Shown here: piece after piece, positions 2,775-62,949 of the stretch
How positions within the stretch are numbered: position 1 is the stretch's first letter
Layout: each line of letters starts with the position of its first letter
Origin: Escherichia phage vB_EcoM_JQD51
Strand: one strand, 5' to 3'
Sequence record: PV204681
Length of the DNA stretch: 64,000 nucleotides
Made by a program: the position numbers and the translations under genes
Notes under the pieces: generated by a model
The model's database searches: none
Seen by the model: only the letters and a program-made list of their open reading frames with translations
Told to the model about the DNA's origin: nothing

Positions 2775-3590
2775 TTAACAATTTGTAGACCAAGTCCATT
2801 TGGACGAATCTAAAGGAAAGTTTTGAATCGTCCACCATGGCCGCATATCGGTTGGTCCTTGAATTCGCCAGGTATACGGATTCGACGGAGCGCCAATTTG
2901 ATTAGGCCATGCACCTGGACTTGTTGTACCAGATTCTTTAAGCAAATCCGCCAATCGTTTTAAAAGGTCTTCACGATCTGAATCTGAATTATGCTCGGGT
3001 GGAACCAAACGAGATTCAATATCATCCCACGTGTGTACACGTTGTGCAGTACGAGGAATGGCATCACGTTCACCACGAGCCAACCAATAAATCGGTACAT
3101 TAAGAATTTCTGCTGCATGGTCGCAATGATGAGCTAAATCGTCAACGTAACAAATCACGTTATATTTTGTTTTAGCTAGTTCGAATAATTGTTCCTTTGA
3201 CGAATCATGACCACACATCATTACTTCAGAAAAAGCGCCTGGGAACAAAGCATTCAAATTAAATTGTCTATTCAATCGAGCATCAATTGAATCACCTAGC
3301 GCCGTCACGGCTACAAAATTATAGTCTTCTTTTAGTTTATTGATAACTCGAAGAGCATCCGAATAAGGCGCTAAGTAACGAATAAAATCAGAGCTATTAT
3401 ATTTTTCTATTAATTGTTTACCAAGGTTATCGTCGGTATTGAACAGTTTACCAGGAGAAATAAATTTTTCGTCCTGAATCATTTTTAAAATATGTTCTAA
3501 TGGAAGATTATATTTTTGGGCAAAATAAGGAAGTCCAGATTGCCAGCTTAAACATACACCATCAATATCAGTCAAAATAGTAGGCTTCAT
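2775..3590 (-). CDS. HAD-superfamily hydrolase-like protein (30.2 position)
   Basis: 271-aa ORF; N-terminal ILTDIDGV matches HAD motif I (DxDG[TV]). Confidence 0.55.
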   Translation of the reverse strand: MKPTILTDIDGVCLSWQSGLPYFAQKYNLPLEHILKMIQDEKFISPGKLFNTDDNLGKQLIEKYNSSDFIRYLAPYSDALRVINKLKEDYNFVAVTALGDSIDARLNRQFNLNALFPGAFSEVMMCGHDSSKEQLFELAKTKYNVICYVDDLAHHCDHAAEILNVPIYWLARGERDAIPRTAQRVHTWDDIESRLVPPEHNSDSDREDLLKRLADLLKESGTTSPGAWPNQIGAPSNPYTWRIQGPTDMRPWWTIQNFPLDSSKWTWSTNC

Positions 3591-4054
3591 AAAGAGTCTC
3601 TTAATAGGTTTAACACATCAATAAATTCAGCTTCAGTTAATATTGTATCATCTTTTGTTAGGTGGCTGGCCATGCTGTGCTTCAAAATTTTTCCTTTAGA
3701 GGCTTGTAAGGCGTCGCGAAACCCCTTGTTTTGGATCGCTGCTTCAAAATATGCATTTGTATATAATTCTTTCCATGCTTCAGAGTATCTTGAAAATGGA
3801 ACTCCTAACCAGAAGAGAGTCCCATGGTCCTGAGCTCTTGCATAAGACCTTCCAGCTTGCTGTGCGGCCAGTCCTGACAGCCCAAATATACGTCTTTGTT
3901 GTTCAACATTTTTCACCTTACATCCTTGGAGAAATCCTTCAAGACCTCCGAATTGAATACCATCCATAACGAAAGGCCACTGGGCAAAATTACTTAATGC
4001 GCATGACGGCCATTTGAAATTGCTTCTTATTTCTAATTCAGACATCTTTAACAC
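3587..4054 (-). CDS. NADAR (YbiA-like, DUF1768) domain protein (30.3 position)
   Basis: 155-aa ORF; LSNFAQWPF...G.QF...EGFLQGCK pattern typical of NADAR/YbiA family; assignment by motif memory. Confidence 0.5.
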   Translation of the reverse strand: MLKMSELEIRSNFKWPSCALSNFAQWPFVMDGIQFGGLEGFLQGCKVKNVEQQRRIFGLSGLAAQQAGRSYARAQDHGTLFWLGVPFSRYSEAWKELYTNAYFEAAIQNKGFRDALQASKGKILKHSMASHLTKDDTILTEAEFIDVLNLLRDSL

Positions 4055-4250
4055 TTATAATTTCAACATCAGCCCAATGTCCGTAACTAGGCAGACGGTC
4101 TTCAATAGATAAACCACCGTCATTTTTAAGCATTTTAATTGTCTTGATAAACGGTTCATCCTGTGGATGAATAGGCGAGCAGTCTGTTACACGATAAGTA
4201 ACTTCGATCATTTCCGTACCAAACAATTTCTGGATTAATTTATTCAACAT
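4038..4250 (-). CDS. Hypothetical protein
   Basis: 70-aa ORF in codirectional tight array. Confidence 0.4.
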   Translation of the reverse strand: MLNKLIQKLFGTEMIEVTYRVTDCSPIHPQDEPFIKTIKMLKNDGGLSIEDRLPSYGHWADVEIISVKDV

Positions 4251-4437
4251 GTTTCAACCCTTTAATAGGAGATAACTCTTTACCCATACGTATGTCAGAA
4301 GTCCAATCAACCCATTGAACAGCATACGCTTCATTGATAATTCCAGCGCCGGTTTTAAATTCAGGGAGAACTTTAAAAATCACCCCAGGAATTCCAACAC
4401 CTTTTAATTGAACTGTTTGTGCTATTAAAAATTTCAT
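4240..4437 (-). CDS. Hypothetical protein
   Basis: 65-aa ORF; early promoter immediately upstream (4462-4492). Confidence 0.4.
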   Translation of the reverse strand: MKFLIAQTVQLKGVGIPGVIFKVLPEFKTGAGIINEAYAVQWVDWTSDIRMGKELSPIKGLKHVE

Positions 4438-4461
4438 ATTTTTCCACTTACTAAAGAAATC

Positions 4462-4492
4462 ATTATACTCTAATCCGTCCTTGGATGTAAAC
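4462..4492 (-). promoter_or_regulatory. T4-type early promoter (GTTTAC -35 / TATAAT -10), dyad ccaaggacgg in spacer
   Basis: Plus-strand attata...gtaaac with 18-19 nt spacing; same architecture repeated at 50943 and 51501. Confidence 0.55.
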
Positions 4493-5106
4493 TACTTAAC
4501 GAAATTAATTTCTACCGGATGAACAACAGGTTGAGCAGTGATATATTGAGTAATTGCTTTCATGACTAGAGCTTCAGAACCAGGATTTTTCTCAACGAAT
4601 TCACGTGCTTGGTTATGAGCTTCAAGTTCACTTAGTAAACCACTTCGCTGGCATCCACGGTCTTGAGTACCTTGTTCAGATAAAAAGACGACGATGTATT
4701 TTTCATCGTCATACGGTTTAGACGGTTGAGCAAATGTTCCTTTACTTCCAAAAGGAGAGTTATGACGCCACATCACGCCGTGAGGAGTTTCAACCTTCGT
4801 ATATTCGTGCGGGCCATTTTTCTTAGTTTCTTGATGTGGAACTTCGTGGACCTTAGGGTTAGGACATTCAATAAAATGCTCATCTAAATCGGTCGAGAAT
4901 ATTAAAGTAAAACAATTACTGAATTTACCAACACCTGCCTGATAAATTTTACCTTCAGAAGTTCTAATTTCACAAACCGAGCCGGCATCAGTAACTTCTA
5001 AAACTTCAAAAGGCTCGATAAGGTCATATGAGAACATGTTTTTAAGGCGTGGAGTAATATCCCCATTTTTAAAATTCATTTTATAAAAAGTATTAACTTT
5101 AAACAT
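4492..5106 (-). CDS. Hypothetical protein (about 204 aa; GSVCEI motif)
   Basis: ORF track 4492..5136; start moved to Met at 5106 with SD gagga; shares GSVCEI motif with 5142..5507. Confidence 0.5.
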   Translation of the reverse strand: MFKVNTFYKMNFKNGDITPRLKNMFSYDLIEPFEVLEVTDAGSVCEIRTSEGKIYQAGVGKFSNCFTLIFSTDLDEHFIECPNPKVHEVPHQETKKNGPHEYTKVETPHGVMWRHNSPFGSKGTFAQPSKPYDDEKYIVVFLSEQGTQDRGCQRSGLLSELEAHNQAREFVEKNPGSEALVMKAITQYITAQPVVHPVEINFVK

Positions 5107-5118
5107 AATTTCCTCAGT

Positions 5119-5134
5119 GGGAGCCGAAGCTCCC
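5119..5134 (-). other. Intercistronic UUCG-tetraloop hairpin without U-tract
   Basis: GGGAGC-cgaa-GCTCCC inverted repeat between stop of 5142..5507 and SD of next gene. Confidence 0.5.
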
Positions 5135-5141
5135 AATTAAA

Positions 5142-5507
5142 TTAGATATCGAATTCGTTCAGAACTACATCAAAGATTGCTTCCAGGTGTTCAGGTTTAG
5201 CTCGGTTACTCAGGATATGACGAATCCAAGTTTTAACCAGAAGTTTACGATTAACACCGTTCCAGCAAGGATGAGTACCTAAATCACGTTGACGGAAATC
5301 GTCATCTAATGCAATTTTGAAGTTGGAACCTTCCATCGTGATTGAAACCGTGATGCCATTTTCAAATCGCATATAAACATAATTAGGAGTCATGCACTGC
5401 TCAATTTCACATACTGAACCATTTTTATGCTTCCACAAACAAACCATATCGATAGAACCAGCGATACCGTTAGAAACATATTTGCGTTCGAAGTTGGTGT
5501 AGTTCAT
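5142..5507 (-). CDS. Hypothetical protein (GSVCEI...CMTP motifs)
   Basis: 121-aa ORF; paralog-like motifs shared with neighbours. Confidence 0.5.
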   Translation of the reverse strand: MNYTNFERKYVSNGIAGSIDMVCLWKHKNGSVCEIEQCMTPNYVYMRFENGITVSITMEGSNFKIALDDDFRQRDLGTHPCWNGVNRKLLVKTWIRHILSNRAKPEHLEAIFDVVLNEFDI

Positions 5508-5548
5508 TTTATTCTCCAGATGTTTAAGTTGTTTGTTGGTACAGGTCT

Positions 5549-5578
5549 ATAATAACATAACCTGTACCAAAGTAAACT
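5549..5578 (-). promoter_or_regulatory. T4-type early promoter embedded in dyad acaggt...acctgt
   Basis: Plus ataata (5549-5554) and gtaaac (5573-5578), 18-nt spacer; 6-bp inverted repeat flanks the -10. Confidence 0.5.
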
Positions 5579-5581
5579 GTT

Positions 5582-5950
5582 TTATGCAACTTTAATCCAA
5601 TTGTCTAAATTTAAAACACCTTTGGCTTTCATTTTTTCGATCAGGTTATCTGCTGTAATGCGTCCATTTTGATACCATGTAACATCTTCAGAGTAACCAG
5701 TTTCTTCGTCAACATATGTTTCTGAACGAATTTTACCGGTAATAATAGTTTTTAATTCGTATGTGTCACCTGTGAAAAAGTTTGCTAACACAATTTTCCA
5801 AGAGAAATCATCTGAAGGACCTTCAGGGGTCATACAACCTACGAACTCAAATTGCTCTTTGTATAACATCCACTGGAATTCTTTAATTTCGATAGCTTTA
5901 TAACCGTCGTGGTCTTTACATTTGATGTATGAGTTCAGATTGATTTTCAT
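5582..5950 (-). CDS. Hypothetical protein (CMTP motif)
   Basis: 122-aa ORF; shares GCMTP motif with 5142..5507. Confidence 0.5.
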   Translation of the reverse strand: MKINLNSYIKCKDHDGYKAIEIKEFQWMLYKEQFEFVGCMTPEGPSDDFSWKIVLANFFTGDTYELKTIITGKIRSETYVDEETGYSEDVTWYQNGRITADNLIEKMKAKGVLNLDNWIKVA

Positions 5951-5991
5951 TTTATTCTCCGATTGTTTTATTGATTAGGTGGTACAAGTCT

Positions 5992-6020
5992 ATAGTAACA
6001 CATCCTACAGGAGAGTAAAC
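5992..6020 (-). promoter_or_regulatory. T4-type early promoter
   Basis: Plus atagta (5992-5997) / gtaaac (6015-6020), 17-nt spacer. Confidence 0.5.
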
Positions 6021-6050
6021 ATCTTTTTTAAACTTTTTCTGCCCTAAACG

Positions 6051-6075
6051 CACAAAAGGGAGACCGAAGTCTCCC
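6051..6075 (-). terminator. Intrinsic terminator (GGGAGAC-uucg-GUCUCCC + U4)
   Basis: Perfect 7-bp inverted repeat 6058-6075 with cgaa loop, A-run 6054-6057 on plus. Confidence 0.75.
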
Positions 6076-6080
6076 TAAAA

Positions 6081-6260
6081 TTATGCAACAACCTTTCCAA
6101 AACGAGAAGCATCATCTCGAAGAACTGCACGTGCTCTGCGCATGATCTTCTCAACTGTTTGATTAATACGAGAGTTCGACCCACGCTTGTATCCAGCGCG
6201 TTTAGAGGTACCATCAACTTTCTTTTCAACTGCTTTCTTTGCTTTAGCTTGTTTTGCCAT
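6081..6260 (-). CDS. Small basic protein (59 aa, MAKQAKAKKAVEKK...)
   Basis: Hand-translated ORF below the track length cut-off; ends 3 nt before the terminator hairpin; replaces overlapping track ORF 6044..6229. Confidence 0.45.
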   Translation of the reverse strand: MAKQAKAKKAVEKKVDGTSKRAGYKRGSNSRINQTVEKIMRRARAVLRDDASRFGKVVA

Positions 6261-6308
6261 TATAAATTCTCTTTAAATGAAAATGCAGGACTTATTGACA
6301 TTGCCTGC

Positions 6309-6500
6309 TCAAGCCCTCAAGGGGAACATAGGTTTTGGATATTTAACGACAGGATAACCATAAACCTCGTCATCATACCACCAAGACTTACACAGATAAC
6401 ACTTTTCTGAAGCATGATAGTAACATTCAAGAGGTACACCGTAAAATTGTCGGGGCGGTACTTCTAAAACATACCGATTCGCAAATCGATAATCAGACAA
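6309..6500 (-). CDS. Hypothetical Cys/Tyr-rich small protein
   Basis: 63-aa ORF with C..CYYH....C..C pattern. Confidence 0.4.
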   Translation of the reverse strand: MSDYRFANRYVLEVPPRQFYGVPLECYYHASEKCYLCKSWWYDDEVYGYPVVKYPKPMFPLRA

Positions 6501-6522
6501 TTCGACGGCTCCTCGATTTAAC

Positions 6523-6771
6523 TTACTTCAGGGTAATAACAAAATGTCGAACTGCTTTGCGTGCTGCAGAAGCCAGAGGCTTAGCATATTTCAATTCATC
6601 TTTAGCTTCCAGTTCAGAAGCCAGAGTAGCCTGAGCAGGATTCAGATGTTTGAAATATCGCAGGATTTCCAGTGCTTCGGCTTCAACATCAATTGACGCA
6701 CCGTAGTTTTCGTGACCGTTATTCCATGCGTTTCGTTGCAGTTCAAGAGCGTGTTGTAATTGTTTAATCAT
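6523..6771 (-). CDS. rIII: rIII lysis-inhibition accessory protein
   Basis: 82-aa ORF, same length as T4 rIII, located between the 30.x genes and gene 31. Confidence 0.75.
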   Translation of the reverse strand: MIKQLQHALELQRNAWNNGHENYGASIDVEAEALEILRYFKHLNPAQATLASELEAKDELKYAKPLASAARKAVRHFVITLK

Positions 6772-6895
6772 TTTAAATTCTCAATTCGAGATAATATTTA
6801 GTAGCCACGTTCGTCTGAATTTCACCTTCTTTCGACAAGTCTCTCAGTTGTAGGCTACCGCTTAGAAGAGTGTTCTCTTCATATAGTTATTTATA

Positions 6896-7228
6896 TCACT
6901 TATAAAGACACGGAATAGCTTTATAGTGGCATGTTACGAATTTCTGTTTAATTTCTTTAGGTTGTTTAAGTCCCAAAGCCACAAATGGATGTGGAACATT
7001 TCGAATTTGTCCAACTGGTAGTGGAGTCAAATCACCGACTTCAACAAAACCTTCAGGAACATCAGGACCTACAGAATGAACTACACATAGTTCAGGAACT
7101 TCACCTTGAACACGTTTACCAATCACAAGTCCTGATTCGGTAACTTCTTCATCACCTGCTTGAGCGGGTTCAGAAACCAGAATGACATATTCACCAACAG
7201 CACGAATTGGGAGTTGTACTTCAGACAT
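6896..7228 (-). CDS. 31: gp31 capsid-folding co-chaperonin (GroES analogue)
   Basis: 110-aa ORF matching T4 gp31 (111 aa) along its length. Confidence 0.9.
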
Positions 7229-7285
7229 CTTATTTCCTTGTTGTTTGACGATAGATTAATAATACTATACTATTCGTAAAGCATA

Positions 7286-7594
7286 TTACATAAGAAGCAA
7301 ACGTTCCACCGGAGTACCATCAACCGAAATTACTTTATCAAGGCGGAAAGAACGCCACTGACCTAACTTGGTGTCGAATGCTCGAACCGATTCACGAGGT
7401 TCATAACGAACTTCTGTTGCCGGATTGTTATTTTCATATTTGACTTCAAGTTCATCGCGCGAAGCAAACATAGTGCGTACCTCGCCGTTAGCCTTTTCAA
7501 ATACAACACAATGAACGCCTACAGACAGAATAGTTTTAATACGTTCACGAAGAACCATAGTTTCTTGTTCAGTTAAAATCATATTATTCACCAC
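7286..7594 (-). CDS. Hypothetical protein (31.1 position)
   Basis: 102-aa ORF between 31 and cd. Confidence 0.5.
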   Translation of the reverse strand: MVNNMILTEQETMVLRERIKTILSVGVHCVVFEKANGEVRTMFASRDELEVKYENNNPATEVRYEPRESVRAFDTKLGQWRSFRLDKVISVDGTPVERLLLM

Positions 7595-8165
7595 AAAAGT
7601 TTCGGATTTGTTCCCAATTCAGAGAACGAAGATTATTACGAGAGTACTGAATTACTTCAATACCAGCTTGTTTTAGAATGTCTGCCCAATTTTCAGGAGA
7701 TCTGTCATATAATTCTGCGTATACAACCTTTTTAATACCTGACTGCGTAATAGCTTTAGTGCAATCAGGACACGGAGAAAGCGTCGTATATAACGTAGCA
7801 CCTTCAATAGAATTACCTTTACGAGCTGCAAACAAAATTGCATTCAATTCAGCATGGATTTCGTTATTAGCAGACCATGCACTATGAGCGGCCCGATGTT
7901 CTTTAGCCAAAACAAAATTATCCACCCGTCCAAATGCTGTAGTGCCTTCTTTATGTCCAGCAACGATGACCGGGCTTGGTTTATTCTTCAACCAACCATT
8001 TTCAGATGCATGTTCGCAACAGTTAACGCCACCTGCAGGTGAACCGTTATACCCAGTAGAAATAATGCGCCCATCTTTTTCAATGACTGCGCCAACTTTC
8101 CATGAACAACATTTTGATTCTTGAGAAATCAGATATGCAATCTGAAGGTATGTGCTAGCTTTCAT
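7584..8165 (-). CDS. cd: dCMP deaminase
   Basis: 193-aa ORF (T4 Cd is 193 aa); zinc-binding HAE and PCxxC deaminase motifs. Confidence 0.92.
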   Translation of the reverse strand: MKASTYLQIAYLISQESKCCSWKVGAVIEKDGRIISTGYNGSPAGGVNCCEHASENGWLKNKPSPVIVAGHKEGTTAFGRVDNFVLAKEHRAAHSAWSANNEIHAELNAILFAARKGNSIEGATLYTTLSPCPDCTKAITQSGIKKVVYAELYDRSPENWADILKQAGIEVIQYSRNNLRSLNWEQIRNFCGE

Positions 8166-9157
8166 TATTGAACCTTATTAATATAAGTTAACAGCTCTTT
8201 AGTTTGTTCCCAACTGATGCACGCATCGGTAACGGAAACGCCATAGGACATATTATCAGAAATTTTTTGATTTCCTTCATGTAGGAATGATTCTATCATA
8301 ATTCCTTTGACCAAATCATTAGCTGCTAAATTTTTACCAATACCAATTTGATTGCTATAATGACCATCAGCGTTTGCATGGCTACAGTCAACCATTACAT
8401 AATGATTCAGACCTACTGCCCTTGCTTTGTTAGAAGCTTCTTGAATATCAGAAGAATGATAGTTCGGGCCGTTGGTCCCGCCACGCAATACGATATGCGT
8501 ATTCTGATTACCTTCAGCTTCAACAATGCCTACAGTACCATCGACGTCCATACCCATATACCGATGAGGCCAGGCGGCACTATACATCGCGTCTGTAGCT
8601 ACTTTAATAGAACCATTGGTTGCGTTCTTGAAGCCTACGCACATCGGTAGACCTGAAGCAATTTCACGATGTGTCTGACTTTCAGTCGTACGGGCGCCAA
8701 TAGCAACCCATGAGAAAATACCAGAAAGATACTTAATCGTGAATGGGTCTAATACTTCAGTTGCTAATGGAAGTCCCATACGTAGAAGTTTACGACACAA
8801 TGTTCGTGCAACTATAAGACCGTGGTTCATATCAAAACTTCCGTCAAGATATGGATCATTTACAAGACCTTTCCAACCTACGGTAGTTCGAGGCTTTTCA
8901 AAATAAACGCGCATCACTAACAAAACATTAGGAAGACGAGTTTGAAGTTCAGCCAGACGTTTGCCGTATTCAACAGCAGCAATAGGGTCATGAATTGAGC
9001 AAGGACCTACAACAATAAGTTTGCGTGGGTCTTCACCGTTCATAATCGAATTAACTTGTTCGCGATGAGAAGCCACTTGTGATGCGTAAGCTTCCGACAA
9101 AGGAATAATCTCAGCCAGTTCTTTTGGAGAAATAAGTTTTCTGATGACAGGTAACAT
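8165..9157 (-). CDS. 3-deoxy-7-phosphoheptulonate (DAHP) synthase, class I-alpha (AroG/AroF/AroH-like)
   Basis: 330-aa ORF; KLIVVGPCSIHD, RVYFEKPRTTVGWKGLVNDP, GARTTESQTHRE, CVGFKN, DCSHAN, ESFLHEGNQ all align with E. coli AroG; start/stop overlaps cd. Confidence 0.88.
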   Translation of the reverse strand: MLPVIRKLISPKELAEIIPLSEAYASQVASHREQVNSIMNGEDPRKLIVVGPCSIHDPIAAVEYGKRLAELQTRLPNVLLVMRVYFEKPRTTVGWKGLVNDPYLDGSFDMNHGLIVARTLCRKLLRMGLPLATEVLDPFTIKYLSGIFSWVAIGARTTESQTHREIASGLPMCVGFKNATNGSIKVATDAMYSAAWPHRYMGMDVDGTVGIVEAEGNQNTHIVLRGGTNGPNYHSSDIQEASNKARAVGLNHYVMVDCSHANADGHYSNQIGIGKNLAANDLVKGIMIESFLHEGNQKISDNMSYGVSVTDACISWEQTKELLTYINKVQ

Positions 9158-9277
9158 AACAATCCTTAGGAGATATAAACAGATTCTGATTCAACAATAC
9201 CTTTAACCGGATTAGACAGGCTAAGTTGGTAGTGCTCAGATTTATGACCATTCACGATAGTAATGAGATAGCTCTCA

Positions 9278-9514
9278 TTATAGTGTTCCATATACTCGAG
9301 TTGCTTCAACAAGACCATCACTGCCTAATTTAAGATTAGTAATTTGGTCACCATCTTTAGGATTAACGATTATGAGAAAAGAACGTGGAGATTCTTGAAT
9401 AACTCGTAATGTTGCATCTTTGAAACGTTCAGACACTTTATTGATGAGTGCTTGAGCAAATTCTTTTACTTTAATCTGAAATTCGTGTACTGTAATTGGG
9501 TTTTCACTTAGCAT
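9278..9514 (-). CDS. Hypothetical protein
   Basis: 78-aa ORF, early promoter upstream at 9543-9572. Confidence 0.45.
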   Translation of the reverse strand: MLSENPITVHEFQIKVKEFAQALINKVSERFKDATLRVIQESPRSFLIIVNPKDGDQITNLKLGSDGLVEATRVYGTL

Positions 9515-24691: not shown

Positions 24692-27600
24692 ATGGCCGAC
24701 ATCAAACGTAAGTTCAGAGCCGAAGACGGTCTGGACGCCGGTGGCGACAAGATTGTTAACGTAGCATTAGCCGACCGTACAGTAGGTACTGATGGCGTAA
24801 ACGTTGACTTCCTGGTACAAGAAAACACCGTTCAAGTATATGATTCTACGCGTGGATATAACAAAGGATTTGTTGTTCTTTATGACAACCGTTTATATCA
24901 AGCAATAAATGATATCGTGTCTCCTTCCGGGGCATTTAACCTTTTACAATGGCGTGCAGTTCGTACCGATGCACAATGGATAACTGTCGCTTCTGGGACT
25001 TATCAACTTTCTTCAGGTGAATCGATTTCGGTTAACACTGGTGCCGGCAATGATATGGTTTTCACATTGCCAAATGCGCCGGTTGATGGTGATACTGTTG
25101 TTTTGGCTGATATTGGTGGAAGAACCGGGACAGTTAAAGTACAGATTAACGCGTCTGTGCAGAGTATTTTAAACTTTAGAGGTGAACAAGTTCGTTCAGT
25201 TTTAATGACGCGACCACGTTCACAACTAGTGTTTGTGTTTAGTAATCGTTTGTGGCAGATGTATATCATTGATTACGGTAAAGAATCAATCACTGTTACA
25301 CCTGCGGCACCATATCAAGCACAAGCAAATGATTTTATCGTTCGTCGTTTTACTAGTGCAGCACCAATCAACATTACACTTCCACGTAATGCTAACAATG
25401 GTGATATAATCAGCCTAGTCGATTTAGATAAATTAAACCCACTGTATCATACAATTGTTAAAACATTTGATGATACAACGTCTATTGGTGAAGTCGGGAC
25501 TCATATTGCCGAAGGCAGAAATGACTCTGACGCGTTTTTTGTTTTTGATGCTGCAAATAGTTTATGGCGTATATGGGAAGGCGACCAGAAATCGCGTCTT
25601 CGTATTATCCGCGCGGATTCAAATATTCGTCCAAATGAAGAAGTTCTTATTTTTGGCACAAATAACGCTACAACCGGAACTATTAATCTTACGCTACCTA
25701 CCGGAATTTTGAGTGGTGACACTGTTAAAATTTCAATGAACTACATGCGTAAAGGCCAAACAGTAAAAATTAAAGCTGCCGAAGGTGATACAATTGCTTC
25801 TTCTGTTGCGTTGCTTCAGTTCCCTAAACGTTCTGAATATCCACCTGATGCTCAATGGGTCTCTGTTACTGAACTAGAATTCAATGGCACTACTTCATAT
25901 GTTCCTGTATTAGAATTATCGTATATCGAAGACACTGATTCTGACACTCATTATTGGGTTGTGCAACAGAATGTCCCTACGGTAGAACGTGTTGATGCTG
26001 GATCTGATGCTACACGAGCTCGTTTAGGTGTTATTGCTCTTGCTACTCAAGCGCAAGCAAATGTTGATTTAGAGAATACTCCAGCTAAAGAAGTTGCTAT
26101 TACTCCTGAAACGTTGGCAAATCGTACAGCAACTGAAGCTCGACGCGGTATCGCCAAAATTGCTACAACAGCGCAAGTTAACCAGAATTCCACAGCGTCA
26201 TTTGTGGACGATACTATTGTTACGCCTAAAAAACTAAATGAGCGTACAGCAACTGAAACTCGTCGCGGTCTTGCTGAAATTGCTACTCAGGCTGAAACCG
26301 ATGCTGGTCTTGATGACACAACGATTATTACGCCTAAGAAATTACAGGCACGTCAGGGTTCCGAAACACTATCGGGTATAGTTAAATATGTATCGACTAC
26401 TTCAGCTATTCCTGCTGAAACTCGTGGTGCCGCAGGCACTAACGTTTATAATAAAACCGTAAATAATTTAACTATTTCTCCTAAAGCCCTTGACCAATAT
26501 AAAGCAACGTATACTCAACAAGGTGCAGTAATTTTAGCTATTGATAGTGAAGTAATTGCTGGTCAATCTCAGTCTGGATACTCTCACGCTGTAGTAACTC
26601 CTGAAACACTACATAAGAAAACTTCTACTGATGGACGTATTGGTTTAATTGAAATTGCTACGCAAGCAGAAACTAATGCTGGGACTGATTATACACGTGC
26701 AGTAACGCCTAAGACGTTAAATGATAGGAAAGCTACGGAAGGATTATCCGGCATAGCCGAAATTGCTACGCAAGTTGAATTTGATACTGGAACTGATGAT
26801 ACTCGTATCTCGACTCCACTGAAAATTAAAACTCATTTTGATTCTTCTGACCGTACCAGTGTTAATTCTGATTCCGGACTTATTGAAGAAGGAACCTTGT
26901 GGAACCATTATACTCTTGATATTTCTAAAGCAAATGAAACACAACGTGGTACACTTCGCGTAGCGACCCAGGCAGAATCTAATGCAGGAACTTTAGATGA
27001 TGTTCTTATTACTCCTAAAAAGCTTTTAGGGACTAAGTCCACTGAAACGTCTGAAGGCGTAATTAAGGTTGCTACTCAGGCTGAAACTGTAACAGGAACT
27101 TCTGCTAATACTGCTGTATCTCCTAAGAATTTAAAATGGATTGTGCAGAGTGAACCAACATGGGCTGCTACTACGGTGATAAGAGGTTTTGTTAAAACTT
27201 CATCTGGTTCAATTACATTCGTTGGTAATGATACAGTCGGTTCTACACAGAACTTAGAGCTATACGAGAAAAATAGCTATGCAGTATCACCGTATGAATT
27301 AAACCGTGTATTAGCAAATTACTTGCCATTAAAAGCAAAAGCTGCTGACACGAATTTATTGGATGGTCTAGATTCATCTCAGTTCATTCGTAGGGACATT
27401 GCACAGACGGTTAATGGTTCACTAACCTTAACCCAACAAACTAATCTGAGTGCCCCTCTTGTATCATCTAGTACTGCTACGTTTGGTGGTTCAGTTTCGG
27501 CAAATAGTACATTAACTATTTCTAATACTGGAACGGCAACTCGTCTTATTTTTGAGAAAGGACCTCAAACTGGAACTAACCCAGCACAGACTATGACTAT

Positions 27601-59712: not shown

Positions 59713-60207
59713 TCACAACTTATTAATATTTACTTTAATTCGCTTTCTTTTCTTGGAAGGAATTTGTTCTGGACCTTTATTTACGACTGCACCTGTAGTT
59801 GTTCCTGATGCAATAGCTTGAGGACTACCGCCTGAATCACCAGCAACCATATCCTCAAATAAAGGGAGTTCTTTAAATATTTCTTTCTGTTGTTCTTCCG
59901 TAATGTTATAGCGTGAAGCTACAGCACTCCAGGCAGACATCATTGAGGCCATTCCATTAAGACCTGGAACAGTGCTCATCATTCGCTTCATTGAACGAAC
60001 TGAAGCATGAAAAGGTGTATACGCAGCTTTCTCTTCGGGAGTAGAAGGACGTTTAAGAACACTTCCACGTTCATCGATGATTTTGGCTTCGTATGCTTTC
60101 CATTCGGTAAAAGGTTTTTGCATTAGTCGAATAAACTTATATGCATAAACAGAATCTATTGCAGTGTTAATAATACCCATAGGTACCTCCTGAGTATATT
60201 TAATCAA
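59713..60207 (-). CDS. Hypothetical protein (61.1 position)
   Basis: 164-aa ORF. Confidence 0.45.
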   Translation of the reverse strand: MIKYTQEVPMGIINTAIDSVYAYKFIRLMQKPFTEWKAYEAKIIDERGSVLKRPSTPEEKAAYTPFHASVRSMKRMMSTVPGLNGMASMMSAWSAVASRYNITEEQQKEIFKELPLFEDMVAGDSGGSPQAIASGTTTGAVVNKGPEQIPSKKRKRIKVNINKL

Positions 60208-60398: not shown

Positions 60399-61058
60399 TT
60401 AACCTCGATTCATAAATGCATTAAATATTTGGTCATCAACAGAAATTTCTAATTCGACTTCAATTGTTTCAGCCTTTTCTTCAGGTGGTAATTCGTATCC
60501 ACACACTACAATTTTTTCATCGATATCAAAATATACAGAAGCAATACGATTAATGTTACTTTCAGTTAAGTCTAAATCAACATCAACATCTTTTTGACCT
60601 ACACTTAAAGGATAACTAATACGGGTTATTTTATTATCTTTAACAAAGAGTCCACCAACATACTCTGTACTACGTTTGAAGTTTACACGTTTCCGAATTG
60701 AAAGATATGATACATCTTTACCGTGAGCTCGGCTCATAGGACATAATGAATAGCTAGAATATGAGATGTCAAATCCTACACCTTCAATATGAGCCAACGT
60801 GTCATGAGTAAACCAATTATAATCATATGCCAAATCCATTATATTGTAATATGTGAAAGGCACAGGATTAACATCATACGTTGTACCTTTAAAATCTGCC
60901 CAGGCAACGATTTCGTTATCTTTAACAATTACAAAAATTACACCAATATGGTATCCGTTATTATTTTCATTCGGCGTTATATTATAACATTGTGCATTAG
61001 GAAATTTACCATATTTAAACGGCGCGTTTTTGTGCATGTAATAAATCATATTATTCAC
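60399..61058 (-). CDS. Hypothetical protein (61.2 position)
   Basis: 219-aa ORF. Confidence 0.45.
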   Translation of the reverse strand: MNNMIYYMHKNAPFKYGKFPNAQCYNITPNENNNGYHIGVIFVIVKDNEIVAWADFKGTTYDVNPVPFTYYNIMDLAYDYNWFTHDTLAHIEGVGFDISYSSYSLCPMSRAHGKDVSYLSIRKRVNFKRSTEYVGGLFVKDNKITRISYPLSVGQKDVDVDLDLTESNINRIASVYFDIDEKIVVCGYELPPEEKAETIEVELEISVDDQIFNAFMNRG

Positions 61059-61344
61059 CTGTGATTTCGGTTACGATATCTTTGTTATCGAAATTAGGGT
61101 CACAATACAAAACATAATTGTATTGCATGATACCGCCAGACTTAAGTTGTTCAACAACTTTATTAACCATATTAGGACGGTCTCGTTTAGTGATGTTCAT
61201 GATATCAGAGAAGATTTGTTGTTCAACATCTTCTTGATTTGCAGTCATTGACCACTCACAGAGGTCTTTATCATAACCTGCTGTAACTGGAGCTGGTGCA
61301 CATGATACTGCAAGTAAGATTGCTGCCAATGATAACTTTTTCAT
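61051..61344 (-). CDS. sp: Spackle periplasmic protein (superinfection exclusion / gp5 lysozyme inhibitor)
   Basis: 97-aa ORF (T4 Sp 97 aa); signal peptide then AGYDKDLCEWSMTA...SGG.MQYNYVLYCD collinear with T4. Confidence 0.88.
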   Translation of the reverse strand: MKKLSLAAILLAVSCAPAPVTAGYDKDLCEWSMTANQEDVEQQIFSDIMNITKRDRPNMVNKVVEQLKSGGIMQYNYVLYCDPNFDNKDIVTEITGE

Positions 61345-61373
61345 TTTAACTCCTTAGTTGATTTGATAGGACT

Positions 61374-61403
61374 ACTATACTATAGTCCATCTATAATGTA
61401 AAC
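61374..61403 (-). promoter_or_regulatory. Early promoter for sp with dyad GGACTA...TAGTCC
   Basis: Plus actata (61374-61379) / gtaaac (61398-61403), 18-nt spacer. Confidence 0.5.
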
Positions 61404-61407
61404 AAGT

Positions 61408-61656
61408 TTATTCTTTTTCGCGAATAATAATTACTTGTTGAGGCTGCTGAGCAGATTTCTTTTCGGCAACGATAGACCAAATTAAAGTTCCAATCCAACC
61501 AACCATCGTCCAGTTAAAGAGTAAAGATACAAAGAAGATTGCTGTTGTGCTTTTTGTGCCACGAATAAGTGCGATTACCCAAGGCAACATGTAAATGATG
61601 ATTGAACCAATACCTGCGATTAAAACTGCTACTGAACTAGCTACGAATAATTCCAT
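61408..61656 (-). CDS. Small integral membrane protein (Imm/superinfection-immunity-like topology)
   Basis: 82-aa ORF, two TM segments with GW..GTLIWS motif. Confidence 0.45.
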   Translation of the reverse strand: MELFVASSVAVLIAGIGSIIIYMLPWVIALIRGTKSTTAIFFVSLLFNWTMVGWIGTLIWSIVAEKKSAQQPQQVIIIREKE

Positions 61657-61717
61657 GTTAATTTCCTCTTGATTTGTTATGTTTATAGTATCTTATTTTA
61701 ACTTTGGTGTAAACCAA

Positions 61718-62086
61718 TTAATTAAATTTGTTTAAACGTTCAATACACTGGACGTAGTTATTAGCGATTTGTTTCTGGGAAGGCTCTTTACCAGTTGTTT
61801 CAACATAGCGAATGAATGCGATTTCAGTAGCCTGTAAGCAATGTTCTTTAACGCGTTGTTCTTTTGATAATGCTACAGTATCAGAGTCACGATAACGTTG
61901 AGCATGGGCATCAGCTTGAATCATTCGATTACCTACAGTAACCGGGTCTTCCACTTCAACTTTAGGTTGGTTGTACTGTTTAACATTCGGATTGTAAATC
62001 AGTTGGCCAACGTTATTAGGGATAAAGCCGTGGGCACCACATCCGGTTAATCCAAATACCATTGCTAAAGCGATTAATTTTTTCAT
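61718..62086 (-). CDS. Putative lipoprotein
   Basis: 122-aa ORF; signal peptide with lipobox LTGC. Confidence 0.5.
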   Translation of the reverse strand: MKKLIALAMVFGLTGCGAHGFIPNNVGQLIYNPNVKQYNQPKVEVEDPVTVGNRMIQADAHAQRYRDSDTVALSKEQRVKEHCLQATEIAFIRYVETTGKEPSQKQIANNYVQCIERLNKFN

Positions 62087-62146
62087 TTCAATTTCCTCTG
62101 TAGTTGATAGAAAGATAGTAACACAGTATGTGGGGCTTGTAAACAG

Positions 62147-62359
62147 TTATTTTAAACTTTTGCGAAATTTGCGTTTTTCTTGACGAATCTGTCGTTTAGT
62201 CGGACGTACAGCAAATTTAACGAAGTCCACTTTGCCGTGTGGAAACTTTTCAGATGCTTCACAGTCCATCATTAGTTCCCATCCTTCCAGAATAAGAGCT
62301 TTCCATTGTGTAGTTGATGCAAATTCGTATGTTGATGGTTTAAACACAGTTGAATACAT
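62147..62359 (-). CDS. Hypothetical protein with basic C-terminus
   Basis: ORF track 62147..62422, start trimmed to Met at 62359 so it does not overlap dmd. Confidence 0.4.
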   Translation of the reverse strand: MYSTVFKPSTYEFASTTQWKALILEGWELMMDCEASEKFPHGKVDFVKFAVRPTKRQIRQEKRKFRKSLK

Positions 62360-62360
62360 A

Positions 62361-62552
62361 TTATCCTCTGAAATCAGCTTCAAAAACTTTCTCGTCATTA
62401 ACAAATGCTTTAACAAGTGCACTGTTCACTTCAGCGAGTTGTACAGCAACCCACTCGATTTCTTCACGGTCACCTGATAACATGATATCTTTAGTGAACA
62501 TCTCACCACTTTTAAACCAACCAATAAAAGTAACTTTAGTTAATTTGCTCAT
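62361..62552 (-). CDS. dmd: Dmd antitoxin (discriminator of mRNA degradation; inhibitor of RnlA/LsoA toxins)
   Basis: ORF track 62361..62573, start at MSKLTKV (62552, SD gagga); FIGWFK...MFTK...EVN.ALVKAF collinear with T4 Dmd (60 aa). Confidence 0.8.
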   Translation of the reverse strand: MSKLTKVTFIGWFKSGEMFTKDIMLSGDREEIEWVAVQLAEVNSALVKAFVNDEKVFEADFRG

Positions 62553-62866
62553 ATTTCCTCGCAAAATGCCCATTCAGCGTGATAAACTGTAGCACCTTTA
62601 GTATTATTCATTTGAACTACGTCTACTGGAGAAATTACTCGATAGAGACGTGGTTCACCTCCATAAGAGCGTGCTGCTCGTCCTGCATAAATCTTTGCTA
62701 AACCGATATCTTCAGTAAAGAATACACGATCCAAGTTTTTCTTACGTCCAGTTTCAGACAGAACTCCTGTTTCCTCAGGAGGACAAAGCATGTTTTCGAT
62801 GTTAGCTGAACTGCTTGAACCGTGATAAAAAATCTTAAATTCTGCTTTACAATCGATGGTTTCCAT
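62549..62866 (-). CDS. Hypothetical protein with H-G-S motif (possible minimal ADP-ribosyltransferase-like fold), coupled to dmd
   Basis: 105-aa ORF; FYHGSS then KIYAGRAARSYGGE and YHAEW segments; stop overlaps dmd ATG. Confidence 0.5.
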   Translation of the reverse strand: METIDCKAEFKIFYHGSSSSANIENMLCPPEETGVLSETGRKKNLDRVFFTEDIGLAKIYAGRAARSYGGEPRLYRVISPVDVVQMNNTKGATVYHAEWAFCEEI

Positions 62867-62924
62867 TTTGTTCTCCTCTTGGTTGGTGTAAGTACATCAT
62901 ATCATGCCTAGAGGAAGATGTAAA

Positions 62925-62949
62925 CCCCGAAAGGAGACCGAAGTCTCCT
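62925..62949 (-). terminator. Intrinsic terminator after gene 41 (AGGAGAC-uucg-GUCUCCU + U-rich)
   Basis: Inverted repeat 62932-62949 with cgaa loop. Confidence 0.7.

What the first reader, a model, noticed from the sequence alone, without database searches (positions are those of the whole stretch)
61051..62086. Envelope-targeted module: spackle, an Imm-like two-TM protein and a lipoprotein
Three consecutive minus-strand genes encode a signal-peptide periplasmic protein (Sp, 97 aa), a small two-TM protein with a GW..G..W motif (61408-61656) and a lipobox lipoprotein (61718-62086). Sp is a known superinfection-exclusion factor; its neighbours have the topology expected for further exclusion or cell-envelope remodelling factors and are not obviously assigned in T4 as I recall it.
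Basis: inference. Interest (0 to 1): 0.4.

Follow-up and report, generated by a model that had tools for sequence, protein, structure and literature searches.

The report
Relocated T4 superinfection-exclusion genes sp–imm–imm.1
The three genes are the already named T4-family genes sp, imm and imm.1 of an RB69-like phage, placed side by side by an old gene move; two block a second phage from injecting its DNA, and only the lipoprotein Imm.1 still lacks a known job.

Summary
Three consecutive minus-strand ORFs sit at the stated coordinates and encode a Sec-signal periplasmic protein, a small protein with two hydrophobic stretches, and a lipobox lipoprotein.

The claim that the two neighbours are unassigned in T4 is wrong. 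The window is an RB69-like Mosigvirus (98.3% nt identity to RB69), and RB69's 2003 annotation already calls these genes sp, imm and imm.1.
- Sp: 66% identical to T4 Spackle.
- The "Imm-like" protein is Imm itself: 64% identical over its full length, with R33 and W50 conserved.
- The lipoprotein: 32% identical to T4 Imm.1, which also has a lipobox.

In T4 and six other T4-like lineages (five phage records and one metagenomic contig), imm lies just downstream of gene 43, the ancestral site, and between 43 and 42 where 42 is present. Mosigviruses moved the imm.1–imm cassette, with its promoter, next to sp. Each gene here has its own T4-type early promoter.

Known mechanisms: Sp inhibits the gp5 tail lysozyme, and Imm binds the tape-measure protein gp29. 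Imm.1 belongs to a narrow, phage-only lipoprotein family that usually sits directly upstream of imm. It is predicted to be outer-membrane anchored, with a flexible tether and a disulfide-locked three-helix bundle. Its function is untested.

Verdict: already known, low interest.

The parts
61051..61344 (-). sp (gene 61.3), Spackle: a periplasmic inhibitor of the gp5 tail lysozyme, 97 aa
   Evidence: ORF. Pfam T4_Spackle 1.1e-42. 66% identity to T4 Sp. PDB 6x6o/7cn6 at E 1e-39. Cys29 and Cys81, which form the disulfide in T4 Sp (PMC7677548), are both present.
61279..61344 (-). Sec signal peptide of Sp (codons 1-22, cleavage VTA|GYD)
   Evidence: Hydropathy. The mature T4 Spackle chain 7cn6 aligns to residues 23-97.
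61408..61656 (-). imm: inner-membrane superinfection immunity protein, 82 aa
   Evidence: Pfam Imm_superinfect 1.8e-15 and PHROG 1039 at 1.2e-30. 64% identity to T4 Imm over the full length. Annotated imm in RB69.
61564..61650 (-). Imm hydrophobic stretch 1 (about residues 3-31)
   Evidence: 19-residue Kyte-Doolittle (KD) hydropathy window reaches up to 2.5.
61468..61548 (-). Imm hydrophobic stretch 2 (about residues 37-63). It contains W49, the equivalent of T4 W50, and the GWIGTLIW motif. R32, the equivalent of T4 R33, lies just before it.
   Evidence: Hydropathy, alignment. In T4, R33A and W50A reduce exclusion (bioRxiv 10.64898/2026.03.06.709160).
61718..62086 (-). imm.1: lipoprotein of unknown function, 122 aa (lipid anchor, a tether of about 30 residues, a three-helix bundle with conserved Cys83 and Cys114)
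   Evidence: Pfam DUF5481 3.7e-9 and PHROG 1754 at 3.6e-29. 32% identity to T4 Imm.1. AF2 model. Family alignment.
62039..62050 (-). Lipobox LTGC of Imm.1 (Cys16; the +2 residue is Gly)
   Evidence: Regex match. The Cys is conserved in 23 of 24 family members and the +2 residue is never Asp.
61374..61403 (-). T4-type early promoter upstream of sp: GTTTACA, N17, TATAGT. The spacer carries a 6-bp stem, GGACTA/TAGTCC.
   Evidence: The stem is read directly from the sequence.
61685..61714 (-). T4-type early promoter upstream of imm: GTTTACA, N17, TACTAT. It lies within a stretch of about 59 nt that is absent from T4's imm.1-imm junction.
   Evidence: Alignment with T4.
62115..62144 (-). T4-type early promoter upstream of imm.1: GTTTACA, N17, TACTAT. 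It is homologous to T4's own imm.1 promoter and 5'UTR.

Best explanation
The block is the sp-imm-imm.1 gene set of an RB69-like (Mosigvirus) T-even phage. These are three immediate-early genes whose products go to three layers of the cell envelope.

Shown here:
- Orthology of all three genes to T4 sp, imm and imm.1.
- The export signals.
- A separate GTTTACA-N17-TAnnnT early promoter in front of each gene.
- The imm.1-imm pair is a cassette whose ancestral site is just downstream of the DNA polymerase gene 43, between 43 and 42 in T4. In Mosigviruses it was moved, together with its promoter, into the 61.4-sp gap. The left junction lies at the -35 hexamer of an early promoter.

Taken from the literature:
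- Sp is secreted to the periplasm and inhibits the gp5 lysozyme at the tail tip of an incoming phage.
- Imm sits in the inner membrane, binds the helical-bundle domain of the tape-measure protein gp29, and so stops the channel forming for genome translocation.

Inferred:
- Imm.1 is processed as a lipoprotein and, having no Asp at +2, is sorted to the inner leaflet of the outer membrane. It presents a small disulfide-locked three-helix bundle on a flexible tether of about 30 residues.
- Because this lipoprotein family is almost always encoded directly upstream of imm, its most likely role is as an accessory, periplasm-facing part of the same early anti-superinfection programme. It would act on a component conserved across a phage genus rather than on a host receptor.

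My probabilities: identity and relocation about 0.97; the Sp and Imm mechanisms applying here about 0.85; Imm.1 having a role in exclusion about 0.3-0.35.
For: Identity:
- 98.3% nt identity to RB69, where the genes are named sp, imm and imm.1.
- Pfam and PHROG hits for all three.
- 66%, 64% and 32% identity to T4 Sp, Imm and Imm.1.
- Spackle PDB match and conserved Cys29/Cys81.
- The Imm functional residues R33 and W50 are conserved.

Promoters:
- Three GTTTACA-N17-TAnnnT sites lie immediately upstream of the three ATGs.
- All 20 such sites in the window are on the minus strand.
- They match the PST/T4 PeSL (promoter-early stem-loop) promoter consensus TTTACW-N17-TAYWAT (PMC4122927).

Relocation:
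- T4 has the order 43-imm.1-imm-42.
- imm lies directly after gene 43 in Gaprivervirus, Gelderlandvirus, Moonvirus, fDHCT2, Jiaodavirus, Serratia phage 4S and a metagenomic contig.
- RB69 keeps a relic of the T4 42-imm intergenic ORF at the old site.
- The imm.1 promoter and 5'UTR are conserved between T4 and the window.
- Each genome has a single copy.

Imm.1 family:
- Lipoprotein ORFs occupy the imm.1 position in L004, L005, L007 and L010.
- The lipobox Cys is present in 23 of 24 members, two Cys are invariant, and +2 is never Asp.
- AF2 gives a disordered region at residues 1-43 followed by three helices.
- Only 28 clusters match among 1.84 billion representatives.
Against: - No experiment on Imm.1 was found: only one paper in the library mentions it, and only as a gene-content marker.
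- Imm alone, expressed from a plasmid, excludes T4.
- imm occurs without an upstream lipoprotein in Gaprivervirus RZ and fDHCT2, so Imm.1 is not required for Imm function.
- One contig carries the lipoprotein with no imm downstream.
- The AF2 model is only moderately confident (mean pLDDT 63) and has no informative fold neighbours.
- Outer-membrane sorting rests on the E. coli +2 rule alone.
- Adjacency to sp may be a neutral by-product of promoter-mediated shuffling rather than a selected module.
Confidence: 0.9

Rival explanations
1. One reading: the two neighbours of sp are new, unassigned envelope factors with no T4 counterparts, forming a new exclusion module.
For: They are absent from the T4 sp neighbourhood, where sp is flanked by 61.2 and 61.4.
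Against: T4 has both genes at 26373-27013, with 64% and 32% identity and the same order and orientation. RB69's annotation already names them. The promoter and 5'UTR are homologous.
Confidence: 0.02
2. Imm.1 is a receptor-masking outer-membrane lipoprotein like T5 Llp or phi80/N15 Cor. It would bind the periplasmic face of the phage's outer-membrane receptor to stop adsorption or to protect progeny from debris.
For: It has a lipobox with a non-Asp +2 residue, paired cysteines and a small mature domain, and it is an early gene. Llp is a precedent for a lytic-phage lipoprotein (PMC9586334, listed).
Against: - Imm.1 is at least 95% identical across 502 Tequatrovirus records, including T2, AR1, Yersinia PST, Serratia PhiZZ30 and Shigella phages, and across 154 Mosigvirus records.
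- These phages use different receptors and hosts (T4 OmpC/LPS, T2 FadL/OmpF; my own knowledge). A receptor-specific binder should co-vary with the adhesin.
- No sequence or fold similarity to Llp or Cor was seen.
- Classical T-even exclusion does not block adsorption (established knowledge).
Confidence: 0.08
3. Imm.1 is unrelated to superinfection exclusion. It would serve another early envelope function, such as outer-membrane or peptidoglycan stabilisation against lysis-from-without, lysis-inhibition signalling, or countering a host envelope defence. It would travel with imm only because the two share a transcription unit.
For: - Imm works alone.
- The imm and imm.1-like genes can each occur without the other.
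- In T4 the pair is separated by 11 nt under one promoter, so the linkage could be purely transcriptional.
- Imm.1 has diverged far more (32%) than Imm (64%) or the eight neighbouring genes (55-86%), which suggests a different selective regime.
Against: The lipoprotein-then-imm order is kept in Tequatrovirus, Mosigvirus, Gelderlandvirus, Moonvirus, Jiaodavirus and a metagenomic relative, and the Serratia 4S record has a 152-aa ORF (not translated or checked) in the same position. The order also survived a relocation in which a new promoter was inserted between the two genes. That is more linkage than a shared promoter requires.
Confidence: 0.35
4. The side-by-side arrangement of sp, imm and imm.1 has no functional meaning. 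It would be a neutral outcome of early-promoter (PeSL)-mediated cassette shuffling, possibly triggered when sugar-modification genes filled the 43-42 interval.
For: - The left junction coincides with the shared AACTGTTTAC -35 element.
- PeSL-mediated shuffling is documented in T4-type phages (PMC2839356, PMC4122927).
- The RB69 43-42 interval now holds GutQ-like, nucleotidyl-transferase and other genes plus a relic ORF.
- T4 and most genera work with sp and imm about 6 kb apart.
Against: Each gene keeps its own promoter, so clustering brings no evident co-regulation benefit. This fits the neutral view rather than contradicting it. Nothing here argues for selection on the adjacency, apart from its fixation in the roughly 141-155 Mosigvirus records.
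Confidence: 0.6

Closest known systems
T4 Spackle (Sp, gp61.3; PDB 6X6O, 6XC0/1, 7CN6/7)
   Same: 97 aa, 66% identical, the same signal peptide and cleavage position, the same Cys29-Cys81 pair, and the same flank on the 61.2 side.
   Different: The upstream neighbour is imm rather than 61.4. About a third of residues differ, presumably tracking the RB69-type gp5 lysozyme (not tested).
T4 Imm (immunity to superinfection; Pfam PF14373)
   Same: Full-length orthologue at 64% identity, the same two lipophilic regions, R33 and W50 conserved, and preceded by imm.1.
   Different: It is located next to sp rather than between genes 43 and 42. It has its own early promoter in a 61-nt gap, where T4 has an 11-nt gap and no promoter. 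The in-frame upstream start that gives a 94-aa form in T4 is not available here.
T4 Imm.1 (Pfam DUF5481; function unknown)
   Same: Lipobox lipoprotein of similar length, two conserved C-terminal cysteines, a homologous promoter and 5'UTR, and a position directly upstream of imm.
   Different: Only 32% identical. It lacks T4's extra N-terminal Cys pair (NCSS...KCY). The Pfam model covers only 4 of 24 members of the wider lipoprotein family.
Ltp of Streptococcus thermophilus phage TP-J34 (a superinfection-exclusion lipoprotein reported to target the tape-measure protein)
   Same: The architecture is alike: lipid anchor, flexible linker and a small all-helical domain facing the space that incoming DNA must cross. 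It is phage-encoded (PMC3952083, listed; the structural details are from my own knowledge).
   Different: No sequence or fold match was detected. Ltp is a Gram-positive prophage protein anchored to the cytoplasmic membrane. Imm.1 has no demonstrated exclusion activity.
T5 Llp and phi80/N15 Cor (receptor-blocking outer-membrane lipoproteins)
   Same: A small early or prophage lipoprotein with a disulfide, predicted to be in the outer membrane.
   Different: No homology was found. Imm.1 does not co-vary with host or receptor within a genus, which argues against receptor masking.
HK97 gp15
   Same: For Imm only: an inner-membrane protein that blocks genome entry through the tape-measure protein. 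The parallel is drawn in the 2026 preprint.
   Different: It is an unrelated protein family from a temperate siphovirus.

Membership tests
T4 Spackle (PF25676) | Profile match above the Pfam gathering score over the full length | tested here: met
   145 bits against a cutoff of 27, residues 1-96 of 96. PDB Spackle at E 1.4e-39.
T4 Spackle (PF25676) | Cleavable Sec signal peptide giving a 75-aa mature periplasmic protein | tested here: met
   MKK plus a hydrophobic core plus VTA|G. The mature chain 7cn6 aligns to residues 23-97. Cleavage itself was not assayed.
T4 Spackle (PF25676) | Cys29-Cys81 disulfide of the helical bundle | tested here: met
   Cys at positions 29 and 81. The disulfide is described in PMC7677548.
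T4 Spackle (PF25676) | Stoichiometric binding and inhibition of the gp5 lysozyme domain | not testable with these tools
   Needs biochemistry. gp5 is not in the window.
T4 Imm / Imm_superinfect (PF14373) | Profile match above the gathering score | tested here: met
   56.9 bits against 27.9, profile positions 1-42 of 42. PHROG 1039 at 1.2e-30.
T4 Imm / Imm_superinfect (PF14373) | Full-length orthology to T4 Imm | tested here: met
   53 of 83 residues identical, end to end, with one 1-residue gap.
T4 Imm / Imm_superinfect (PF14373) | Two long lipophilic regions (membrane protein) | tested here: met
   The 19-residue Kyte-Doolittle (KD) hydropathy window reaches up to 2.5; the stretches are about residues 3-31 and 37-63. 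No topology predictor or structure model was run.
T4 Imm / Imm_superinfect (PF14373) | Residues needed for exclusion in T4 (R33, W50) | tested here: met
   Window R32 and W49 align with them. The mutant data are in the preprint.
T4 Imm / Imm_superinfect (PF14373) | Binds tape-measure protein gp29 and blocks genome translocation | not testable with these tools
   gp29 is outside the window, and no complex prediction tool is available.
Imm.1 lipoprotein family (DUF5481 and wider relatives) | Profile match above the gathering score | tested here: met
   DUF5481 at 37.4 bits against 27. PHROG 1754 at 3.6e-29.
Imm.1 lipoprotein family (DUF5481 and wider relatives) | N-terminal lipobox L-[TAS]-G-C | tested here: met
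   LTGC, with Cys16. Present in 23 of 24 members.
Imm.1 lipoprotein family (DUF5481 and wider relatives) | Two invariant C-terminal cysteines in helices 2 and 3 | tested here: met
   C83 and C114 are invariant. They fall within helices 75-98 and 104-120 of the AF2 model.
Imm.1 lipoprotein family (DUF5481 and wider relatives) | Encoded immediately upstream of imm on the same strand | tested here: met
   True in the window, T4, L004, L005 and L007 and L010. L011 has an ORF in that position that was not checked.
Imm.1 lipoprotein family (DUF5481 and wider relatives) | Actual lipidation and outer-membrane localisation | not testable with these tools
   Only the +2 rule supports this (no Asp in any of the 23 members that keep the lipobox Cys).
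Llp/Cor receptor-blocking lipoproteins | Sequence or fold homology to Llp or Cor | tested here: not met
Llp/Cor receptor-blocking lipoproteins | Specificity that tracks the phage's receptor | tested here: not met
   At least 95% identity across 502 Tequatrovirus and 154 Mosigvirus records from varied hosts. That receptors differ among these phages is established knowledge and was not tested here.
Ltp-type sie lipoproteins (TP-J34) | Homology to the Ltp helical repeat domains | tested here: not met

The most novel reading that the evidence does not exclude
Imm.1 is a third, so far unrecognised superinfection-exclusion factor of T-even phages. It would be an outer-membrane-tethered lipoprotein whose disulfide-locked helical domain engages a genus-specific part of the incoming injection machinery (tail-tip complex gp5/gp5.4/gp27, or the emerging tape-measure protein), or hands it to Imm. 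Its sharp split into two forms (32% identity between T4-type and RB69-type, at least 95% within each) would then contribute to the known one-sided exclusion between RB69 and T4. In that case the Mosigvirus arrangement would be a complete exclusion cluster covering outer membrane, periplasm and inner membrane.
Probability: 0.3. Interest if true: 0.5.

Novelty: already known. Interest (0 to 1): 0.15.

Why it matters
As it stands, this is a correct re-discovery of annotated genes. Sp and Imm are the two textbook T4 superinfection-exclusion proteins, and their targets are known or recently reported (gp5 lysozyme; tape-measure protein gp29).

Two things remain of value.
- The analysis documents that imm travels with a conserved, phage-restricted lipoprotein gene (imm.1) that has never been characterised and is mislabelled in databases as 'iduronate sulfatase' or 'immunity protein'.
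- It gives a clean example of an early-promoter-bounded cassette moving within T-even genomes.

If Imm.1 proved to be an exclusion factor, it would add an outer-membrane layer to a classic system and might help explain exclusion between phage genera.

Tried and rejected
Function of Imm.1 from structure
- Foldseek against BFVD returned only Imm.1's own orthologues. Neither search was informative.
- A profile search of the PDB sequences with the family alignment gave no hit.
- NCBIfam gave only sub-threshold noise.

Was Imm.1 a lipoprotein version of Spackle?
- BLASTP of Imm.1 against Sp found no alignment.
- Rejected.

Was Imm.1 an Llp/Cor-like receptor mask?
- Rejected, because the protein is near-invariant within each genus across phages of different hosts.

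Literature
- 'imm.1' plus 'bacteriophage T4' returned nothing.
- 'imm.1' plus 'phage' returned one paper, which only lists it as a gene-content difference. That listing probably arises from the 32% divergence rather than from true absence in RB69.

Other searches
- The word-indexed protein search with the single sequence found only 3 proteins, so an alignment query was needed.
- No solved structure matches Imm by sequence.
- Two paper searches failed because a search term was too short.
- I did not run a structure prediction for Imm. Hydropathy and the published work were judged sufficient.
Full report
**1. What is in the sequence**

The ORF scan shows three consecutive minus-strand ORFs at exactly the coordinates given: 61051-61344 (97 aa), 61408-61656 (82 aa) and 61718-62086 (122 aa). 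The gaps between them are 63 and 61 nt.

- The 97-aa protein starts MKKLSLAAILLAVSCAPAPVTA|GYD. It has a basic n-region, a hydrophobic core and a (-3,-1) VTA site.
- The 82-aa protein has two hydrophobic stretches, about residues 3-31 and 37-63.
- The 122-aa protein starts MKKLIALAMVFGLTGC, a canonical lipobox with Cys16 followed by Gly.
- Each ATG is preceded by a GAGG or AAGGAG Shine-Dalgarno sequence.

**2. Identity**

A megablast of 60900-62500 finds 255 phage records. The best are RB69-like Mosigviruses at 98-98.6% identity, with RB69 itself at 98.3%. RB69's GenBank record (AY303349) annotates the three genes as sp, imm and imm.1.

| Gene | Pfam hit | PHROG hit | Identity to T4 protein |
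|---|---|---|---|
| sp | T4_Spackle, 1.1e-42 | spackle periplasmic | 66% |
| imm | Imm_superinfect, 1.8e-15 | immunity to superinfection | 64%, end to end |
| imm.1 | DUF5481, 3.7e-9 | unknown-function family | 32% over the whole length |

T4 Imm.1 also has a lipobox (LAGC). Both are named T4 genes, so the statement that they are not assigned in T4 is incorrect.

**3. Why they looked unfamiliar: a relocated cassette**

In T4, sp lies between 61.2 and 61.4. The order imm.1-imm lies about 6 kb away, between the DNA polymerase gene 43 and gene 42.

imm lies directly downstream of gene 43 in:
- Gaprivervirus RZ
- Gelderlandvirus NP4
- Moonvirus Merlin
- phage fDHCT2
- Jiaodavirus JD18
- Serratia phage 4S
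- a 68-kb metagenomic contig

. The site next to gene 43 is therefore ancestral, and the Mosigvirus position next to sp is derived.

RB69's 43-to-42-like interval now contains a GutQ-like isomerase, a nucleotidyl-transferase and other genes. It also contains a small ORF (ORF054c) that the depositors noted as similar to the T4 42-imm intercistronic region. I confirmed this: blastn gives 71% identity over 115 nt, and both phages encode a homologous hydrophobic peptide, PxMIPT..GW...Q.KYEC.N. In T4 this peptide is unannotated and overlaps the imm stop codon. This relic marks the right-hand breakpoint of what moved.

Aligning the T4 and window cassettes gives three results:
- The imm.1 promoter and 5'UTR moved with the genes (CTGTTTACAAG...ACTAT...CTATCAACTAC.GA..GGA).
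- The sequence left of the -35 hexamer in the window (TTTAAAATAACTGTTTAC) equals the T4 sequence left of the sp promoter. This places the left junction at the shared -35 element.
- The window has about 59 extra nucleotides between imm.1 and imm that carry a further promoter, whereas T4 has only an 11-nt gap.

This fits the early-promoter (PeSL, promoter-early stem-loop) mediated cassette shuffling described for T4-type phages (PMC2839356, PMC4122927). That it happened this way is an inference. Every genome searched has a single copy of imm and of imm.1, so this was a move, not a duplication.

**4. Expression signals**

The pattern GTTTAC[AT]-N15-17-TANNNT occurs 20 times in the window, and all 20 are on the minus strand. 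Three of them sit immediately upstream of imm.1 (62144), imm (61714) and sp (61403), each with a 17-nt spacer. They fit the PST/T4 PeSL promoter consensus TTTACW-N17-TAYWAT.

The sp promoter spacer contains a 6-bp inverted repeat, GGACTA/TAGTCC, read directly from the sequence. No intrinsic terminator was predicted between the genes. So each of the three genes is probably an independently transcribed immediate-early unit. This is inferred; transcription was not measured.

**5. How the parts work**

*Sp.* Crystal structures and biochemistry show that mature 75-aa Spackle is a periplasmic helical bundle with a Cys29-Cys81 disulfide. It binds the lysozyme domain of the tail-spike protein gp5 1:1 and inhibits it (PMC7677548). 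The window protein matches those PDB chains at E 1e-39, and the mature chain aligns from residue 23. It keeps both cysteines.

*Imm.* A 2026 preprint (10.64898/2026.03.06.709160) reports the following:
- T4 Imm co-purifies with, and was visualised bound to, the helical-bundle domain of the tape-measure protein gp29.
- R33A and W50A weaken exclusion.
- Plasmid-borne Imm alone excludes T4.

Both residues are conserved here as R32 and W49. I take these mechanisms to apply to the RB69-type proteins by orthology. This is an inference, since gp5 and gp29 are outside the window.

**6. Imm.1, the only real unknown**

The ORFs in the imm.1 position in NP4, Merlin and JD18 are all lipoproteins (LAGC or LTGC) with two C-terminal cysteines, as is the one on the metagenomic contig, directly upstream of a PF14373 gene.

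- A profile built from these recovered 20 proteins in the 5.8-billion-sequence collection.
- HMMER over 1.84 billion cluster representatives found only 28 clusters. The family is small and apparently restricted to T4-like phages.
- In a 24-member alignment the lipobox Cys is present in 23. Gly15, Tyr31, Cys83 and Cys114 are invariant, and additional cysteines come in pairs.
- The residue after the lipid-modified Cys is never Asp. By the E. coli Lol '+2 rule' (established knowledge), this predicts sorting to the outer membrane.

AlphaFold2 with a 21-sequence alignment gives a disordered N-terminal 43 residues (signal peptide plus tether). Three helices follow at 48-67, 75-98 and 104-120, with pLDDT 80-89 in the last two. 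The invariant cysteines lie in helices 2 and 3.

**7. Constraints on Imm.1's role**

*(a) It is not needed for Imm activity.*
- Imm alone works.
- Two lineages have imm without the lipoprotein.
- One contig has the lipoprotein without a downstream imm.

*(b) Yet the lipoprotein-then-imm order is kept in at least six lineages.* It also survived a relocation and the insertion of a promoter between the two genes.

*(c) Imm.1 is the divergence outlier.* It is 32% identical to T4, against 55-86% for eight neighbouring genes, including Imm at 64% and Sp at 66%.

*(d) Within a genus it is almost invariant.*
- At least 95% identical in 502 Tequatrovirus records, including T2, AR1, Yersinia PST, Serratia PhiZZ30 and Shigella phages.
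- At least 95% identical in 154 Mosigvirus records.

Phages within these genera use different outer-membrane receptors (my own knowledge). This pattern therefore argues against an Llp/Cor-style receptor mask, and for a target that is conserved within a genus but differs between genera.

The closest analogy by architecture is the TP-J34 lipoprotein Ltp: anchor, linker and a small helical domain, reported to act on the tape-measure protein. No homology was detected, so this is a "works like" suggestion only.

I put the probability that Imm.1 contributes to superinfection exclusion at about 0.3. The main alternative, at about 0.35, is an unrelated early envelope function. The remainder is unknown.

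**8. Is the trio a 'module'?**

All three products are exported to the envelope and all three genes are early. In that loose sense, yes. But the adjacency is confined to the roughly 141-155 Mosigvirus records that carry the arrangement. Each gene has its own promoter, and T4 functions with the genes 6 kb apart. The adjacency is best read as a probably neutral product of cassette shuffling.

**9. Verdict**

The genes are already known and annotated, and the mechanisms of two of the three are established or recently reported. What remains of interest is the uncharacterised, conserved lipoprotein partner of imm. Interest 0.15; novelty: already known.

Noticed in passing
L002 (T4) minus strand, about 9222-9371; L008 (RB69) 7824-7934: T4 has an unannotated 49-aa hydrophobic ORF (MKSKIIAALLLILMIIISIYYSVTVPLMIPTIILGWSLLLLQVKYECIN) whose ATG overlaps the imm stop codon. 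It is homologous to RB69ORF054c, which stayed at the old 43-42 site when imm.1-imm moved. It may be a conserved small membrane peptide.
   Followed up: partly
L002 9637-10014 (T4 imm.1, NC_000866): RefSeq names T4 Imm.1 'iduronate sulfatase', and many GenBank records call Imm.1 'immunity protein'. Nothing found here supports either name: it is a 125-aa lipoprotein matching only DUF5481.
   Followed up: partly
window 60399-61058 (-): The gene just downstream of sp (gp61.2) matches Pfam AdfA, anti-DarT factor A, at 3e-118. Its start overlaps the end of sp by 8 nt. With dmd (62361-62552), this makes the neighbourhood a run of early counter-defence and competition genes.
   Followed up: no
window 62549-62866 (-), promoter at about 62896-62925: A 105-aa ORF (PHROG 2110, the equivalent of RB69ORF040c) with no Pfam hit, preceded by its own GTTTACA-N17-TATGAT early promoter. 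T4 has no gene at this position, between dmd and 41.
   Followed up: no
window, whole length: All 20 matches to GTTTAC[AT]-N15-17-TANNNT are on the minus strand. Many have short inverted repeats in the spacer (e.g. CACC...GGTG, CCAA...TTGG), as described for PeSL elements.
   Followed up: partly
window 59713-60207 (-): This is a single 164-aa ORF. RB69's annotation splits the same stretch into 61.1 (92 aa) plus ORF032c (63 aa), and T4's 61.1 is only 54 aa. Either the gene structure differs or the annotations are inconsistent.
   Followed up: no
window 61300-61344 (-) and T4 Sp: The signal peptide of Sp contains a cysteine (Cys15). In T4 it sits in a lipobox-like context (LASC); in the window the context is weaker (AVSC). 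Published work treats Sp as a soluble periplasmic protein cleaved before Gly23. I did not find lipidation ever being excluded.
   Followed up: no
P0002 (metagenomic Imm.1 homologue, 45% identical): It has Phe in place of the lipobox cysteine (LAGF) while keeping the rest of the protein. This could be a soluble periplasmic variant or a sequencing error.
   Followed up: no
L008 (RB69) 3498-8599; L011 (Serratia phage 4S); L009: The gene 43-42 interval is a hotspot for sugar-nucleotide genes (SIS/GutQ-like isomerase, nucleotidyl-transferases) in RB69, Serratia phage 4S and a metagenomic contig. In 4S the imm.1-imm pair remains upstream of them; in RB69 it has left.
   Followed up: partly
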